Origin: Octopus sinensis
Taxonomy: Eukaryota
Direction: 5' to 3'
NCBI RefSeq assembly: GCF_006345805.1
Contig: NW_021826041.1
Span: forward strand, 1-13,867
Length of the DNA: 13,867 nt
The translations under genes were made by a program, and so were the position numbers. Below are positions 1-13,867 of the stretch, one piece after another (position 1 is the first letter of the stretch; every line of letters begins with the position of its first letter). The notes under the pieces were generated by a model. It did no database searches, had not been told where the DNA came from, and saw nothing but the letters and a program-made list of their open reading frames with translations.

Positions 1-695
1 ACAATGTGCAGACGACTCACTGGCTGGATCCTGAGGACATTCCGGACAAGAGACTGCGAGACCATGTTGACACTATGGAGGACATTTGTCCTAAGCCCGC
101 CACTACTGCTCCCAACTGTGGTCACCACATAGTGTCAAACTAACCACAGAGCTTGAGACAATCCAAAGACATTTCACCAAGATTATTCCACCATGAAAGA
201 AAAGAACTATTGGGAGAGGCTTAGGGAACTCAATTTGTACTCCTTGGAACGAAGACGAGAGAGATATGCAGTGATATACATATGGAAAATCCTGGAGGGA
301 CTAGCACCAAATTTTGGAATTGAGAGCTGTTCCAGTCCCCGTACAGGACGTCACTGTGTGGTGCAAAGTCCCGTCTTCCACATCCAGGGTAAGGAGCAGA
401 TACTGTAATAGCCTGGGGTTCAGGGGCCCTCAGCTGTTCAACAACTGCCAAGAAAACTAAGAGATCTACATGATGCGGATGTGGACATTTTCAAAAAACA
501 TCTAGACAAGCTGCTTTCCGGGATCCAGATGAACCCACTGCAAGGTACGAAGGTAACCTAAGGGCAGCAGCTACAAACTCTCTCTTAGATCAGTGGCCAG
601 CCACGGCAAACTGGACTTAGAGAGGGTAGCAACAAGAGCGGTGCCCCAGCATGGCCTCAGCCGGATGGCTGAAACAAGTAAAAGAGTAAAGAGTA
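1..695 (+). mobile_element. 3' end of a CR1-group non-LTR retrotransposon (ORF2 C-terminus, short 3' UTR, GTAAA(A)GA tail); runs off the left window edge
   Basis: Joining frames gives ..GWILRTFRTRDCETMLTLWRTFVLS/YCSQLWSPHSVKLTTELETIQRHFTK/MKEKNYWERLRELNLYSLERRRERYAVIYIWKILEGLAPNFG../SLGFRGPQLFN/LPRKLRDL..VDIFKKHLDKLLSGI/PDEPT..RAAATNSLLDQW..TAG(618-620). This is the typical post-RT region of CR1-like ORF2. About 5 frameshifts. A short-repeat tail follows, then (TA)n. Confidence 0.88.
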
Positions 696-1023: not shown

Positions 1024-1469
1024 GGGTGGGAAGGGGCTGTTGACACAATCGTTTCATTCACAAATTGAATTCGGTGATACCAGTTGCGGATTCTAGCTCG
1101 CTCTGATACTGAGTTGAGTTGGTGCCTTCTGGTATCTCAAAATTCAATATATAATCATTTATGATTATAGTATTCTACGCTGAAGAGAAAAGAAGTTTCG
1201 GTAAGATAGAATTATTTAATATTTAATATTTAATTCTTATGCTTTCCTTAAAACTTGATTTCGAAACGTACGTCCGTGGATAACTAAAAAAAAAATGTAT
1301 GATAGATTGCAGTCAATTCATTCTCTCTTACCTGTTTGTGTCTGCCTTCCAAATGCTGTTTTTACTGAGATCTCCCTTTTTAGTAGAAGAAATAGCTATA
1401 ACCCTTTGACTGCTATTTCTAAATTCGGTATGTGGTAAGGCAACTCGTTGCTAAACCCTTATTGCTTAG
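1024..1469 (+). mobile_element. Hammerhead-containing, hairpin-rich non-coding cassette in (TA)n (Penelope-like LTR or retrozyme-like unit)
   Basis: Bounded by TA tracts on both sides, no ORF, contains the hammerhead at 1174-1280 and four further hairpins. The class assignment is inferred from the known association of type I hammerheads with Penelope-like elements and retrozymes. Confidence 0.6.
1174..1280 (+). ncRNA. Type I hammerhead ribozyme with elongated stem II
   Basis: Stem I TCTACG(1174-1179)/CGTGGA(1275-1280); core CTGAAGA(1180-1186); stem II 1187-1262 closed by G1187-C1262; GAAA(1263-1266); palindromic stem III ACGTACGT(1266-1273); GUC triplet with predicted cleavage after C1274. 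Confidence 0.8.
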
Positions 1470-1477
1470 TATATATA

Positions 1478-1525
<48 letters not shown>

Positions 1526-1529
<4 letters not shown>

Positions 1530-1726
1530 GACCTCGTGTGTACCGTTGGCGATTTTCTTCCTCTGTCTTCCCTTCTCTGATCTTTCTTTCCTTCTCCTAT
1601 GTTTCCGACGAAGAGCTCCGCTCGAAACGTTAAGCCCTCCTTCTTTCCTGAGCGTCCAATAATACTATATTTGTTCCACGTCCTCGCATTGTTGTGTTTT
1701 TTTTGTGCTTTCTTGTTTGGATTAAC
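1526..1726 (+). mobile_element. ~200-bp TA-flanked repeat with a variant minimal hammerhead (Penelope-like LTR-type family), copy 1
   Basis: Flanked by (TA)n. Collinear with the reverse complement of 13653-13867 through blocks TGTRACC, GTTGGCGATTT, TGTTTCCGANGAAGAG, GCTCGAAACGT, CTGAGCGTC, CCACGTCC and ATTRACTATA. Confidence 0.7.
1601..1635 (+). ncRNA. Minimal type I hammerhead-like motif, non-canonical core
   Basis: GTTT-CCGACGA-A-GAGC(TCC)GCTC-GAAA-CG-TT-AAGC. Stem I GTTT/AAGC, 4-bp stem II, ACGT mini stem III. Has a U4C change and an extra A relative to the consensus. Confidence 0.5.
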
Positions 1727-1745
1727 TATATATATATATATAAGT

Positions 1746-1800: not shown

Positions 1801-1854
1801 TTTCTGCTATAGGCACAATGCCTTAAATTTTGGAGGTGGAGACTAATCGATTAC
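1801..1854 (-). mobile_element. 3'-terminal fragment of SINE family B
   Basis: TTTCTGCTATAGGCACAATGCCTTAAATTTTGGAGG..TAATCGATTAC aligns with 4021-4074 and 4183-4230. Confidence 0.65.
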
Positions 1855-2171
1855 TTCTGCTATAGGCCCGGGCCGACCAATGCCTTATGAGTGGATTTGG
1901 TAGACGGAAACTGAAAGAAGCCTGTCGTATATATGTATATATATATATGTATGTGTGTGTGTTTGTGTGTCTGTGTTTGTTCCCCTAGCATTGCTTGATA
2001 ACCGATGCTGGTGTGTTTACATCCCCGTAACTTAGCGGTTCGGCAAAAAAGACCGATAGAATAAGTACTGGGCTTACAAAAAGAATAAGTCCTGGGGTCG
2101 AGTTGCTCGACTAAAGGCGGTGCTCCAGCATGGCCGCAGTCAAATGACTGAAACAAGTAAAAGAGTAAAAG

Positions 2172-2172
<1 letters not shown>
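1855..2172 (+). mobile_element. SINE family A, 5'-truncated, with internal (TA)n(TG)n and LINE-derived tail
   Basis: Collinear with the reverse complement of about 9527-9852. Ends GCGGTGCTCCAGCATGGCCGCAGTCAAATGACTGAAACAA(GTAAAAGA)2. Confidence 0.92.
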
Positions 2173-3792: not shown

Positions 3793-4000
3793 TTTTGGCT
3801 TAAGGCAAATTTGGCAGGAGGAGGAGGGGATAATCTACTATGTAGACCCCTGTACTTCACTCGTACTTTATTTTATCGACCCGAAAGGCTGAAAGGTAAA
3901 TGTTAACCTCGGCGGCATTTGAACTCAGAACATAGAGAGCTGATAGACATATTACTAAGCATTTTGTCTGGAATGCTAACGATTCTACCAGTTCGCCGCC
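3793..4000 (-). mobile_element. SINE family B, diverged near-full-length copy
   Basis: Reverse complement begins GGCGGCGAACTGGTAGAATCGTTAGCA, has a B-box GAGTTCAAATGCC and a central GAGGTTAAC..CCTTTCAGCCTTTCGGGTCGATAAAATAA. Matches 11714-11880. Confidence 0.85.
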
Positions 4001-4020
4001 TTATATTTGTCAATAACTAT

Positions 4021-4587
4021 TTTCCCACTATAGACACAATATCTGGAATTCGTGAGAGTTGGTCAGTCGATTACATCGACCCCAATCTTCAACTGGTACT
4101 TATTTTATCGACCTCGAAACGATTAAAATCAAAGTTGACTTCGACGGGATTTGAACTCAGCCTGTGAAGAGCCGGGATAAATATTATAGACACGAAGCCT
4201 GAAATTCGAGGGGGGTAGTCAGTTGATTACATCGACCCCAGTCTTCAAACGGTACTTATTTTGTCAACCACGAAACGATTAAAATCAAAGTTGACCTCGA
4301 CGAGATTTGAACTCAGCTTGTAAAGAACCGAGACATAAGTCGCAAGGCATTTTGTTCGACGATCCAACAATTCTTCCAAATTTCTAAGAGAGGGTTAGGA
4401 CTAGTTTTTTAAGGAGTTAGTCTGTTAATTCGACTCCAGTACTTGCCACGAACTTTATTTGTCGATCCTGGAAGGACAAAGGGCAAAGTTGATCCCGGCA
4501 GGATTTGAACTCAGGATGTAAAGAGATAAAACGTATATCTCGAAGCGTTTTACCCGATGTCATGAAGATTCTACCAAATTTCTAAGA
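4021..4587 (-). mobile_element. Three further head-to-tail SINE family B units (~4021-4180, ~4183-4377, ~4378-4575)
   Basis: Each unit has TCGACCCC/TCGACTCC, AAAGTTGA and GATTTGAACTCAG blocks in the same order. Confidence 0.85.
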
Positions 4588-6919: not shown

Positions 6920-7043
6920 ATCGGCCGGTTCGAAAAGATGAAAATCAAATCTAACCTCATCGGAATTTGAACTTACATCACACAGAGCCAGAACGAATAC
7001 CAGCAAACACCCACGCTCTAACGACTCGGCCAACTCTACGCTT
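6920..7043 (-). mobile_element. Highly diverged SINE family B 5' half
   Basis: CGAAAAGATGAAAATCAAATCTAACCTCATCGGAATTTGAACT and CTAACGACTCGGCCAACTC align with family B blocks. Confidence 0.6.
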
Positions 7044-8092: not shown

Positions 8093-8638
8093 TTTTAAAA
8101 GAAAGAAAAAGGTCAATAAATACTTGCCATTACATTTTTAATCAACCAAATATGAAACATTTTGTTGCACAATGCGTCTCCATCTTTCCTTTCACTTGAA
8201 ATAACCCCCTTCCCAGAACTGAGGTGGTTTCATGGCAAAGAATTCATCATGGTATCTTTTTGTGTCATCCAAGGAATTGAAATTTTTACTATTAAGACTA
8301 TTCTGAGAGACCTGAATAAGTGGAAATCCGAAGGAGCAATATCTGGTGAATATTGACATATTGAGGGTGGGGTAACACATCCCAGCCGAGCTGCAGCAAT
8401 TTTTTTTCTGGTTCCCAAAGCATCAAGTGCCGAAAAGGAACTTTCTTATCTTCCATTTTAAAGGGTTACAGAATTAACACATGTTATAAGAACATAAATC
8501 TTCTTCCACGAGAAGACAGCGTAAACTGTGCTCTAAATGGAGGTGTAGTCAAATCCTATTTTATGGACTCAACCATGTTCTAAAATAAGTCAAAAGGTAA
8601 GCTACCATAAATCGGCACGAACTTTCCGGACAACCCAA
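8093..8638 (-). mobile_element. Internally deleted mariner (Tc1/mariner) element; 3' TIR not seen
   Basis: TA followed by TIR-like TTGGGTTGTCCGGAAAGTTCGTGCCGATTT (8638-8609). ATG at 8456 gives MEDKKVPFRHLMLW, fused to the C-terminal LGTRKK/LLQLGWDVLPHP/YSPDIAPSDFHLFRS/QNSLNSKNFNSLDD..DEFFAMKPPQFWEGG. YSPDLAPxD is the mariner signature. Confidence 0.92.
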
Positions 8639-8980: not shown

Positions 8981-9943
8981 CAGTAATACCTCACTTTACA
9001 AGACCCCGGGTTTACGAGTTTTATTTTATCATATTTCATGCGCAAAACCCAAATTTTGAATGAAGTGCAAACATTTCTACTCTTATAGCAAATGCTCCTG
9101 CAGGATACCGAGAAATTTACAGAGAGCGAAAAGGTTTCTTCTAAGCAAACAACGCTAGACTTGATTTTTAAAATGAGATCTGCAAGTCCGTCTACGAGTG
9201 CTTTTGCATCAGCGATCGCGTCTATAAGTGACGGTGTGCACGAGTCTAGTTCGAGTGAAAGTGATTCAGAAAACGATAACAATAATAATAATTTTAAATT
9301 ATAAATGATCTTGACATTCTTTTTGCTTTGCATAAAATATTCTTTACATTCTACTGTTGTTTTATTGCCATTTATTTACGAGTATTATCAATTTTATAGG
9401 TAAAATATTTTTCTGGGAACGAATTACAATTTATAACATTGCTACTATGGAAAAGTATCGCTCTGCTTTACGAGTATTCACTTTACGAGTGATCTCCGGG
9501 AACATATTAACTCGTATATCGAGTCATTACTCTTTTACTCTTTTACTTGTTTCAGTCATTTGATTGTGGCCATGCTGGAGCACCGCTTTTAGTCGAGCAA
9601 ATCGACCCCAGGACTTATTCTTTGTAAGCCTAGTACTTATTCTATCGGTCTCATTTGCCGAACCGCTAAGTTACGGGGACGTAAACACACCAGCATCGGT
9701 TGTCGAGCGATGTTGGGGGGCGGACAAACACAGATACACAAACATATACACACACGTACATATATATATACATATATACGACGGGCTTCTTTCAGTTTTC
9801 GTCTACCAAATCCACTCACAAAGCTTTGGTCGGCTCAAGGCTATAGTAGAAGACACCAGCCGAAAGTTCCACGCAGTGGGACTGAACCTGGAACCATGTG
9901 GTTGGTAAGCAAGCTGCTTACCACACAGCCTCTCCTACGCCTG
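8981..9943 (+). mobile_element. Internally deleted Tigger/pogo DNA transposon (body 8981-9530; last 2 nt displaced to 9942-9943 by a SINE)
   Basis: Left TIR CAGTAATACCTCACTTTACAAG (8981-9002). Right TIR CTCGTATATCGAGTCATTAC[SINE]TG followed by TA. C-terminal remnant NPNFE*SANISTLIANAPAGYREIYRERK/SKQTTLDLIFK plus an acidic tail, typical of Tigger transposases. Subterminal TTTACGAGT repeats. Confidence 0.82.
9527..9941 (-). mobile_element. SINE family A, full length (tRNA-derived head, internal microsatellite, LINE-type tail)
   Basis: Minus strand starts GGCGTAGGAGAGGCTGTGTGGTAAG, with an A-box-like motif at 9931-9921, a B-box GGTTCAGTCCC at 9888-9878 and a (GTAAAAGA)n tail. Confidence 0.92.
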
Positions 9944-11270: not shown

Positions 11271-11713
11271 CTTTTGCTGCGTTGACAAAACGGGAAACGA
11301 CCTCTCTACTATGAATTACGAAGCTTTCAAGATTACCAACGAAGTCTGTCAAATACAAATGTAATAAACAGCGGTAGCCGCTTAAGTGATGTTTTACCTG
11401 AGCTAAATTCGATGGCCAGGAAGTGGCTTGTCACTCTAGTGTAATGATATTCGCCGTGAGATGGTGTTCAGCAGGTAGTGTGTTCTATTTCCGTAGGCGA
11501 TTCTGGGTATTTATTTACGTCTTTCACTCTGCCTTTGAATGTAGTCAATTCTTGATAATAATGTTATTTCGAAATATATTATAACAGTGAATAGCAAGAA
11601 GCTATAGGGAGAGCTGAATAACAGGATGTTTTTCGAGAAGCACCTCTCATGTGTGAGGTTTCTCCTCTGAAGATCTGCCGTTCAGTTCTCAAACAATATT
11701 TCTGTTCGTCTAA

Positions 11714-12182
11714 GGCGGCGTGCTGGTAGAAACGTTAGCACGCCTGGAGAAATGCTTAGCAGTATTTCGTCTGCCGTTACGTTCTGAGTTCGAATTCCGC
11801 CGAGGTCGACTTTGCTTTTCATCCTTTCGGGATCGATAAATTAAGTTCCAATTACTCACTGGGGTCGATGTAATCGACTTAATCCCTTTGTCTGTCCTTG
11901 TTTGTTCCCTCTATGTTCAGCCCCTTGTGGCAATAAAGAAATAAGAAACGTTAGCACGCCGAGCGAAATACTTATCGCTACTTCGTCAGTTTTTACGTTC
12001 TGAGTTCAAATTCGACTTTGCTGTTCATCCTTTCAGAGACAATAAATCAAGGACCAGTTGCATACTGGGGTCGATCTAATCGACTGATCTCCCCCCCCCC
12101 CAATTTTTTTCTCCCCAAATAGAAAAGCTCTACATTGTAATTTGTCCCGTCTGAGTTCAGCCCTGTGTGACTAATAAAGAAA
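11714..12182 (+). mobile_element. Dimeric SINE family B (monomer 1 11714-11948; monomer 2 11944-12182)
   Basis: Head GGCGGCGTGCTGGTAGAAACGTTAGCACGCC, B-box GAGTTCGAATTCC (11786-11798). The central GAGGTCGACTTTGCTTTTCATCCTTTCGGGATCGATAAA resembles the Meta/MESC-type conserved SINE domain (from memory). Tail AATAAAGAAA. The second unit restarts at AGAAACGTTAGCACGCC. Confidence 0.88.
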
Positions 12183-13178: not shown

Positions 13179-13581
13179 GGATATATGTGTATGCATATAG
13201 GTAGATAGATGGATATAATTTGTATATGCTATGTACATATGCATATACACACATATATATATATGTGGGGGTGAGTGTGTGTGAGTATGTGTGTGAGTGT
13301 TTATACGTATGCCACAAATACATAGCTATATTGGTATATATAAATATATGTGTATATATTCACGCATACATATGTATCTATATATAATATATAAATGCAT
13401 ATGTACGTGTATATTTGTTATTTTCTTTTTCTCTGTGTTTTTTTTTATAATTGACTATATATATATATGCATCGGATATGTGTATGCATACAGATACATG
13501 CTTGTATTTGCTTGTGTGTATGCCAATATGAATATGTTATATATATAATATATATGGTTACATATAATAATATATATTATC

Positions 13582-13614
<33 letters not shown>

Positions 13615-13650
13615 GATATATATATATTATATATATATATATATATGTAT
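13120..13650. repeat. CA/TA/TG low-complexity block containing one unique 48-bp insert (13412-13459)
   Basis: Direct inspection. Confidence 0.9.
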
Positions 13651-13652
13651 AT

Positions 13653-13867
13653 AGTCAATTATAAAAATTATAAACACAGAGAAAAAGAAAATAACAAATA
13701 AACGTTTGGACGTGGCACAAGTAATGTATTAGTAGTAAGACGCTCAGAGAAAGAAAAGAGTAGAAGTTTTACGTTTCGAGCATATCTCTTCTTCGGAAAC
13801 AGAAAGAAAGAGGAACGTCCGAGACGAAGGAGGAAAATAAATCGCCAACAATCACGTGCGGTTACAT
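13653..13867 (-). mobile_element. Hammerhead-bearing repeat family, copy 2 (reaches the window edge)
   Basis: Homologous to 1526-1726. Hammerhead-like motif at 13800-13766: GTTT-CCGAAGA-A-GAG(ATATG)CTC-GAAA-CG-TA-AAAC. Confidence 0.7.

What the first reader, a model, noticed from the sequence alone, without database searches (positions are those of the whole stretch)
1601..1635. Variant minimal hammerhead (CCGANGA + extra A) conserved in two diverged copies
Seen: copies at 1601-1635 (+) and 13766-13800 (-) differ mainly at tolerant sites: N7 (C/A), the stem II loop (TCC/ATATG), the cleavage base (GUU/GUA) and stem I (AAGC/AAAC, both pair with GTTT). Both keep C in place of U4 and an A inserted before stem II, while the flanking sequence has diverged with indels. 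Inference: the deviation is a family trait rather than decay, either a non-canonical ribozyme or a repurposed structural signal. Based on only two copies.
Basis: partly seen in the sequence, partly recalled or inferred. Interest (0 to 1): 0.7.

Follow-up and report, generated by a model that had tools for sequence, protein, structure and literature searches.

The report
Octopus Penelope-type hammerhead, C4 variant
A short, abundant octopus-type repeat carries the tiny hammerhead RNA motif known from Penelope-like jumping genes; its extra A is normal for that class, and its one odd letter (C for U) is the majority form among close relatives and likely allows only weak, still untested self-cutting.

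Summary
Observation confirmed: both motifs are there (2 strict hits; 0.003 expected in shuffles), each inside a ~200-nt repeat set in (TA)n, in what looks like an Octopus genome. The motif matches the published minimal hammerhead of Penelope-like elements (PLEs) at every core position but one. The extra A is not a deviation: 54 of 56 published examples have an extra base there, 30 an A. The C for U4 is a real family trait. In 26,162 public contigs laid on copy 1, C holds 72-77% of the depth and canonical U 23-28%, in three runs. This covers copy 1's subfamily only. U4C is known elsewhere as a tolerated, still-cleaving variant (viroid, viroid-like RNAs). This scan noted it repeatedly in phages, and PLE minimal hammerheads in other animals. 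I found no paper with a C4-majority PLE family. Flank blocks are nearly as conserved as the motif, and the 'stem I covariation' is a near-private change of copy 1. Best reading: a non-autonomous or truncated PLE repeat whose masters carried a weakened, dimer-dependent hammerhead; these lone copies are probably inactive. No PLE ORF was linked and cleavage is untested. New variant of a known kind; interest 0.3.

The parts
1601..1635 (+). Minimal type I hammerhead motif, copy 1: 4-bp stem I, core with C at position 4, extra A, 4-bp stem II, palindromic 4-nt stem III half, GUU triplet
   Evidence: Sequence; descriptor scan; fits the published min-HHR consensus except at position 4
1606..1606 (+). 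Core position 4: C in place of U
   Evidence: C in 72.0, 77.2 and 75.9% of laid depth in runs X3, X7, X11; T in 28.0, 22.8, 24.1%
1612..1612 (+). Extra A between A9 and G10.1, a standard feature of PLE minimal hammerheads
   Evidence: PMC4209133 text and Fig. S3; no A-to-other row at this place among the 40 rows shown
1526..1726 (+). Host repeat, copy 1: ~200-nt non-coding unit with three conserved blocks (about 1530-1560, 1600-1635, 1648-1690) joined by pyrimidine-rich spacers
   Evidence: Alignment with copy 2; depth profile and 13,323, 8,204 and 4,635 contigs laid; no Pfam or protein homologue for its one stop-free frame
1470..1525 (.). (TA)n array on the 5' side of copy 1, likely the insertion target
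   Evidence: Tandem Repeats Finder
1727..1742 (.). (TA)n run on the 3' side of copy 1
   Evidence: Sequence
13766..13800 (-). Minimal hammerhead motif, copy 2: C4 at 13795, N7=A, 3-bp stem II, GUA triplet, perfect 4-bp stem I
13654..13867 (-). Host repeat, copy 2 (diverged subfamily); its 5' end reaches the window edge
   Evidence: BLASTN match 13708-13849
13538..13653 (.). (TA)n array on the 3' side of copy 2
   Evidence: Tandem Repeats Finder

Best explanation
The motif is a minimal type I hammerhead, with C in place of U4 in most close relatives, inside an abundant (TA)n-flanked repeat that is likely the terminal piece of a Penelope-like retroelement, and it would self-cut only weakly and only as a dimer. 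Shown: the anatomy, the match to the published class, the repeat context, and the C:U split of about 3:1 in copy 1's subfamily. Inferred: C4 arose in master elements and was copied by retrotransposition beside a canonical-U sub-lineage. In tandem master transcripts two motifs would pair through their palindromic ACGU and cut after position 17, trimming the RNA. The two lone, oppositely oriented copies here, 12 kb apart, cannot do this in cis and are probably decaying relics.
For: Core, G10.1-C11.1 pair, extra base, palindromic 15.2-16.2, U-rich 5' flank and short stem I match the consensus of PMC4209133. Both copies abut (TA)n; all 4 Octopus PLE entries in the PMC8557442 metadata have a (TA)n preference. 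A neighbouring repeat-derived ORF hits an Octopus vulgaris predicted protein. C at 1606 is 72-77% of depth in three runs. The alternative there is U at 23-28%, well above the other CpG changes shown (0.4-10.9%), and no G1607>A row is among the 40 shown, so U looks like a master lineage rather than deamination. The two family changes of 10% or more inside the motif (C4>U; C1635>U, giving a G-U pair) keep the fold. G12 changes at CpG-like rates (1.6-3.5%), as expected of unselected dead copies. U4C cleaves in other hammerheads. A monomeric min-HHR showed no cleavage and dimers low cleavage in PMC4209133.
Against: No PLE reverse transcriptase or endonuclease ORF was linked to the repeat: none in the window, no genome held, no exact string match in the Naiad/Hydra consensus files. 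Cleavage was not tested. U4C precedents are full hammerheads, whereas this one lacks stem III and visible tertiary contacts, so the two handicaps may add up to no activity. Predicted folding is unremarkable (z 0.03 and -0.40), and C4 lowers the predicted stem II probability from 0.79 to 0.51. sees only sequences near copy 1: no C>A change reached 1%, so copy 2's type was not sampled. Eleven variant rows were hidden, including 2 G>A. The raw-read run X22 gave only 4 reads in 1,934 million letters, which does not fit a high copy number in that sample. Motif conservation exceeds the flanks only weakly.
Confidence: 0.6

Rival explanations
1. Same PLE origin, but the C4 motif is catalytically dead: masters that had lost cleavage spread anyway, using PLE proteins in trans.
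For: Min-HHRs are barely active even with U4. PMC3088659 says U4C considerably lowers activity in vitro. Naiad PLEs spread without canonical hammerheads. C4 favours competing folds in silico. Head-to-tail joints were rare: 3 go-back contig records listed among 26,162 laid (table 5c).
Against: Copies only about 72% alike keep all other core bases. No variant row is shown at C3, G5, A6, G8, A9, A13, A14, A15.1 or U16.1 (11 rows hidden). The one common core change is to the canonical U.
Confidence: 0.2
2. C4 is a local feature of one or two subfamilies, and across the whole repeat superfamily canonical CUGA dominates; these two copies are an unrepresentative draw.
For: Reads were laid on a C-bearing copy, and diverged subfamilies were not captured (no C>A change at 1% or more, although copy 2 has A at N7). 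All 56 and all 34 published PLE hammerhead rows have U4.
Against: Both copies in the window have C4 although they belong to distant subfamilies. Independent T-to-C change cannot give 72-77% in three runs. The published sets were found with descriptors that fix the catalytic boxes.
Confidence: 0.1
3. The motif has been repurposed as a non-catalytic structural or protein-binding signal (for example for recognition by the reverse transcriptase), for which C4 is preferred.
For: C4 is the majority form. PMC4209133 does not rule out functions other than cleavage.
Against: U and C coexist at 1:3, so C is not required. No other departure from the hammerhead core has accumulated. No more stable alternative fold is shared by both copies.
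Confidence: 0.05
4. The unit is a non-LTR retrozyme (tandem, circular-RNA-forming) rather than a PLE end piece.
For: Short, non-coding, hammerhead-bearing; retrozymes are proposed PLE derivatives; a few go-back joints exist.
Against: Both copies are single units in (TA)n, not tandem arrays. The motif has the extra base and 4-bp stem I of min-HHRs, not the 6-bp stem I with a capped stem III of canonical metazoan type I motifs.
Confidence: 0.05

Closest known systems
Minimal hammerheads (min-HHR) in the pseudo-LTRs of metazoan Penelope-like elements (Cervera and De la Pena 2014, PMC4209133)
   Same: Type I topology, no stem III in the monomer, palindromic 15.2-16.2, extra base between 9 and 10.1, G10.1-C11.1, short stem I, U-rich flanks, mostly dispersed single copies.
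   Different: C at position 4 (0 of 56 published rows); stem II of 3-4 bp is at the short end; no PLE ORF was linked here; no cephalopod is among the 56 rows.
Natural U4C (CCGA) hammerheads: peach latent mosaic viroid variant (Ambros and Flores 1998, seen only as cited in PMC9608096 and PMC3088659), citrus-associated viroid-like RNA (PMC9608096), zeta virus ZV1 minus strand and betaviroid-like RNAs (bioRxiv 10.64898/2026.09.16.752053)
   Same: The same core change. ZV1's CCGA hammerhead cleaved during transcription.
   Different: The ZV1 and betaviroid-like motifs are described as full type III hammerheads in RNA replicons. Here the change sits in a minimal, dimer-dependent motif and is the majority form of a genomic repeat subfamily.
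Octopus PLE families Hydra-1_Obim, Naiad_Obim, Naiad_Ovul (Craig et al. 2021, PMC8557442)
   Same: Same likely host genus; (TA)n insertion preference; Hydra-1_Obim has a hammerhead near its 3' end.
   Different: The Hydra-1_Obim motif has a CUGA core, 7-bp stem II and a real stem III. None of ten short strings from this window occurs in the paper's files (line breaks could hide a match).
Non-LTR retrozymes of animals (bioRxiv 10.64898/2026.07.22.740005)
   Same: Short non-coding hammerhead-bearing repeats, proposed to derive from PLE pseudo-LTRs.
   Different: Retrozymes are defined as tandem units with a hammerhead in each; both copies here are monomers.

Membership tests
PLE min-HHR | Core CUGANGA with U4 | tested here: not met
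   Both window copies have C4; in relatives of copy 1, 23-28% of depth has U
PLE min-HHR | Other core bases (C3, G5, A6, G8, A9, G12, A13, A14, A15.1, U16.1, H17) | tested here: met
   All present in both copies
PLE min-HHR | Extra nucleotide between 9 and 10.1 | tested here: met
   A in both copies; 54 of 56 published rows have one, 30 an A, counted by eye
PLE min-HHR | G10.1-C11.1 pair and a stem II | tested here: met
   4 bp in copy 1, 3 bp in copy 2
PLE min-HHR | Palindromic 15.2-16.2 allowing a dimeric stem III | tested here: met
   ACGU in both; a double-hammerhead pairing can be drawn (energy not computed)
PLE min-HHR | Large consensus families, mostly dispersed single copies | tested here: met
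   13,323, 8,204 and 4,635 contigs laid in three runs; but only 4 raw reads in the fourth run
Penelope-like element | Hammerhead in a pLTR next to an RT/GIY-YIG ORF | tested here: inconclusive
   No ORF in the window or in the unit; no genome held; no loci in viral, metagenome or prokaryote collections
Penelope-like element | Insertion into (TA)n, as listed for Octopus PLEs | tested here: met
   Copy 1 has (TA)n on both sides, copy 2 on the one side that can be seen; not specific, since other repeats in this window also abut microsatellites
Hammerhead ribozyme (functional) | Site-specific self-cleavage after N17 | not testable with these tools
   No raw RNA reads were offered; needs an assay
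Rfam hammerhead families | Covariance-model match | tested here: not met
   No hammerhead hit at E<=5 in the window or E<=10 in 1030-1730
Non-LTR retrozyme | Tandem units, each with a type I hammerhead | tested here: not met
   Both copies are monomers; only 3 go-back joints listed

The most novel reading that the evidence does not exclude
A very abundant octopus Penelope-derived family has been amplified mainly from masters with a U4C minimal hammerhead, held under selection as a deliberately slowed ribozyme that lets longer-than-unit transcripts survive for reverse transcription. Paired natural C4 and U4 sub-lineages would then make the open question 'what do PLE hammerheads do?' directly testable.
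Probability: 0.15. Interest if true: 0.6.

Novelty: new variant of a known kind. Interest (0 to 1): 0.3.

Why it matters
The role of hammerheads in Penelope-like elements is still unclear. A family with two amplified forms that differ at one catalytic-core base is a natural experiment on whether cleavage matters for spreading. It also shows that descriptors fixed on CUGA would miss about three quarters of this subfamily. The class, the extra A and the U4C change are each already described, so the surprise is modest.

Tried and rejected
Rfam scans: only microsatellite-driven miRNA hits, no hammerhead. Own genome: none held, so no assembly-wide count. Pattern scans for family copies: 0 in viral contigs, 0 in two metagenome scans, 0 in prokaryote genomes. 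Protein search with the unit's stop-free minus frame, meant to read position 4 in diverged copies: no candidate; Pfam 0 families. Earlier findings by sequence, by genome and by 'octopus cephalopod hammerhead': nothing. String searches in the PMC8557442 supplement: no match. Ambros and Flores 1998 and the Terminon paper were not held. Raw-read run X22 was uninformative: 4 reads, all under 95% alike; a human-likeness filter on microsatellite-rich reads or a different sample content could explain it, neither tested. Seven runs guessed or recorded as RNA hold 0.11-0.61 of the words; I did not lay them and do not use them. Rejected: 'stem I covariation' (near-private base in copy 1); pure CpG decay as the source of U4 (rate too high, partner change not seen); a heterodimer with the hammerhead at 1180-1274 (stem I strands not cross-complementary, by inspection); a coding role (frames not conserved between copies).

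Full report
Observation. A strict hammerhead descriptor that allows C or U at position 4 finds exactly these two in the window, against a mean of 0.003 in 300 dinucleotide shuffles, none of which reached two. They are copies of one repeat: 71.7% identity over 152 columns, E=1.3e-12. Copy 1 spans about 1526-1726 between two (TA)n runs; copy 2 lies on the minus strand from the window edge to a (TA)n array at 13538-13653. Identity between the copies is 29 of 35 ungapped columns in the motif and 101 of 157 in the flanks (p=0.045, windows chosen after the fact). Two flank blocks reach 22 of 29 and 33 of 43. The motif is thus the best of three conserved blocks, not a lone island.

Host and context. 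The window is microsatellite-rich and has no long ORF. A repeat-derived ORF at 9564-9905 has two hits among six candidates; one is named as a predicted protein of Octopus vulgaris, 77% identical over 39% of the query. I take the host to be an Octopus; the species was not determined. No genome is held, and pattern scans of viral, metagenome and prokaryote collections found no copy.

The extra A is normal. Cervera and De la Pena 2014 (PMC4209133; I read parts 1-2 of 4 of the text and parts 1-2 of 3 of the supplement) define the minimal hammerhead of Penelope-like elements. [quoted passage not shown] In their alignment of 56 motifs I count by eye 54 with the extra base, 30 of them A, and 0 with C at position 4. 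Their search fixed the catalytic boxes, so the last count is biased. The window's motifs fit their consensus at all other core positions. They report no cleavage by a monomer and low cleavage by dimers. In Craig et al. 2021 (PMC8557442; passages, supplement parts 1-2 of 59 and string searches) all 34 listed PLE hammerhead rows have CUGA, and all 4 Octopus PLE entries prefer (TA)n.

C4 is a real, majority, but unfixed trait. I laid four of the 24 runs offered on 1526-1726 at 80% likeness. Three contig runs with different organism labels gave 13,323, 8,204 and 4,635 contigs. At 1606, T holds 28.0, 22.8 and 24.1% of the depth, so C holds 72-77%. The other CpG changes shown run from 0.4 to 10.9%. 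No G1607>A row is among the 40 shown; 11 rows were hidden, by subtraction 7 C>T, 2 G>A and 2 T>C in run X3, and six CpG guanines compete for the two hidden G>A rows. The U form therefore looks like a separately amplified lineage rather than deamination of dead copies (inference). Apart from 1634, the two changes of 10% or more in the motif are C4>U and C1635>U, both compatible with the fold. At 1634, 96-99% of depth has A, so the family's stem I is perfectly paired and copy 1's G is nearly private. G12 is changed in 1.6-3.5%, like other CpG sites, as expected if single insertions decay freely.

Limits of that count. Depth sums are not copy numbers. The lay reaches only sequences near copy 1: no C>A change reached 1% anywhere, although copy 2 has A at N7, so copy 2's subfamily was not sampled and its C4 rests on one copy. 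The three labels may be related species or relabelled samples. The fourth run, raw reads under the label of the best holders, gave only 4 reads in 1,934 million letters; this is unexplained and speaks against a high copy number in that sample, unless a filter removed the reads.

U4C has precedent. PMC9608096 (passages) reports CCGA variants in a viroid-like RNA and says the same change in peach latent mosaic viroid did not affect cleavage. PMC3088659 (passages and section 8) says of that variant that it considerably lowers activity in vitro but suffices in vivo; the two citations differ in degree. The original paper was not held. A 2026 preprint (10.64898/2026.09.16.752053; passages) finds CCGA in zeta-virus and betaviroid-like hammerheads and shows that both ZV1 strands, one with CCGA, cleave during transcription. 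Earlier notes of this scan report U4C repeatedly in phage hammerheads and PLE minimal hammerheads in other animals (unchecked here). Searches for hammerhead+CCGA+CUGA, hammerhead+U4C, hammerhead+octopus+ribozyme and cephalopod+hammerhead ribozyme showed no report of a C4 PLE hammerhead or of this family. Two octopus repeat papers mention Penelope elements but not hammerheads in the main text (PMC13282606, part 1 of 3 and passages; PMC8967140, passages). The supplement of the first was listed but not read, preprint supplements are closed, and most subscription papers are not held, so a prior mention cannot be excluded.

Mechanism. Shown: anatomy, class match, (TA)n context, C:U split. Inferred: the unit is the end piece or a non-autonomous derivative of a (TA)n-targeting PLE. 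Master transcripts with tandem units would form a double hammerhead through the ACGU palindromes (pairing drawn) and cut after position 17. C4 would slow this without abolishing it. The monomer folds are unremarkable, and C4 lowers the predicted stem II probability from 0.79 to 0.51. The two copies here are single, opposite in orientation and 12 kb apart, so they cannot dimerise in one transcript and are probably silent. Go-back joints were rare (3 records listed). The main rival is that the C4 form is dead and spread passively. No PLE ORF was linked, so 'works like a PLE minimal hammerhead' is better supported than 'is part of a PLE'; by the strict core definition the U4 test is not met.

Verdict. 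One of the two claimed deviations is standard and the other is a known tolerated variant. What I did not find described is their combination as the majority form of an abundant animal repeat. New variant of a known kind, interest 0.3. A second, unrelated and fully canonical hammerhead with an unusually long stem II lies about 330 bases upstream and deserves its own look.

Noticed in passing
window 1168-1285 (+): A second, unrelated type I hammerhead with a canonical CUGA core (C3=1180, G12=1263, C17=1274), GUC triplet, 8-nt palindromic stem III region, 6-bp stem I plus a distal 4-bp helix, and a 76-nt stem II hairpin. The fold with the core forced open is -22.3 kcal/mol against an MFE of -22.4; z-score only -1.33. 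No Rfam hit, no second copy in the window. It sits in a TA-flanked block, 1024-1469.
   Followed up: partly
window 1-690 (+): Broken 3' end of a LINE-like ORF (frame 1 reads YWERLRELNLYSLERRRERY; the family assignment is recalled, Pfam gave no hit). By eye its tail at about 640-695 resembles the tails of short repeats at about 2117-2170 and, reversed, 9525-9585, as in a LINE-SINE pair.
   Followed up: no
window 1854-2172 (+) and 9531-9852 (-): Two inverted copies of a young ~320-nt SINE-like repeat, 84-96% alike; an ORF in the second hits an Octopus vulgaris predicted protein.
   Followed up: partly
window 3880-4560 (+), 6940-7040 (+), 11700-12170 (-): Several copies of another short repeat family, partly in tandem with 156-232 nt spacing (families D18, D19, inverted pairs I4, I5).
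   Followed up: no
window 8110-8600 (-): Broken fragment that reads like the C-terminus of a mariner transposase (YSPDIAPSDFHLFRS; assignment recalled, not searched).
   Followed up: no
run X22 on window 1526-1726: Raw genomic reads under the label of the best-holding organism gave only 4 laid reads in 1,934 million letters, while three contig runs gave thousands of contigs. Unexplained.
   Followed up: no
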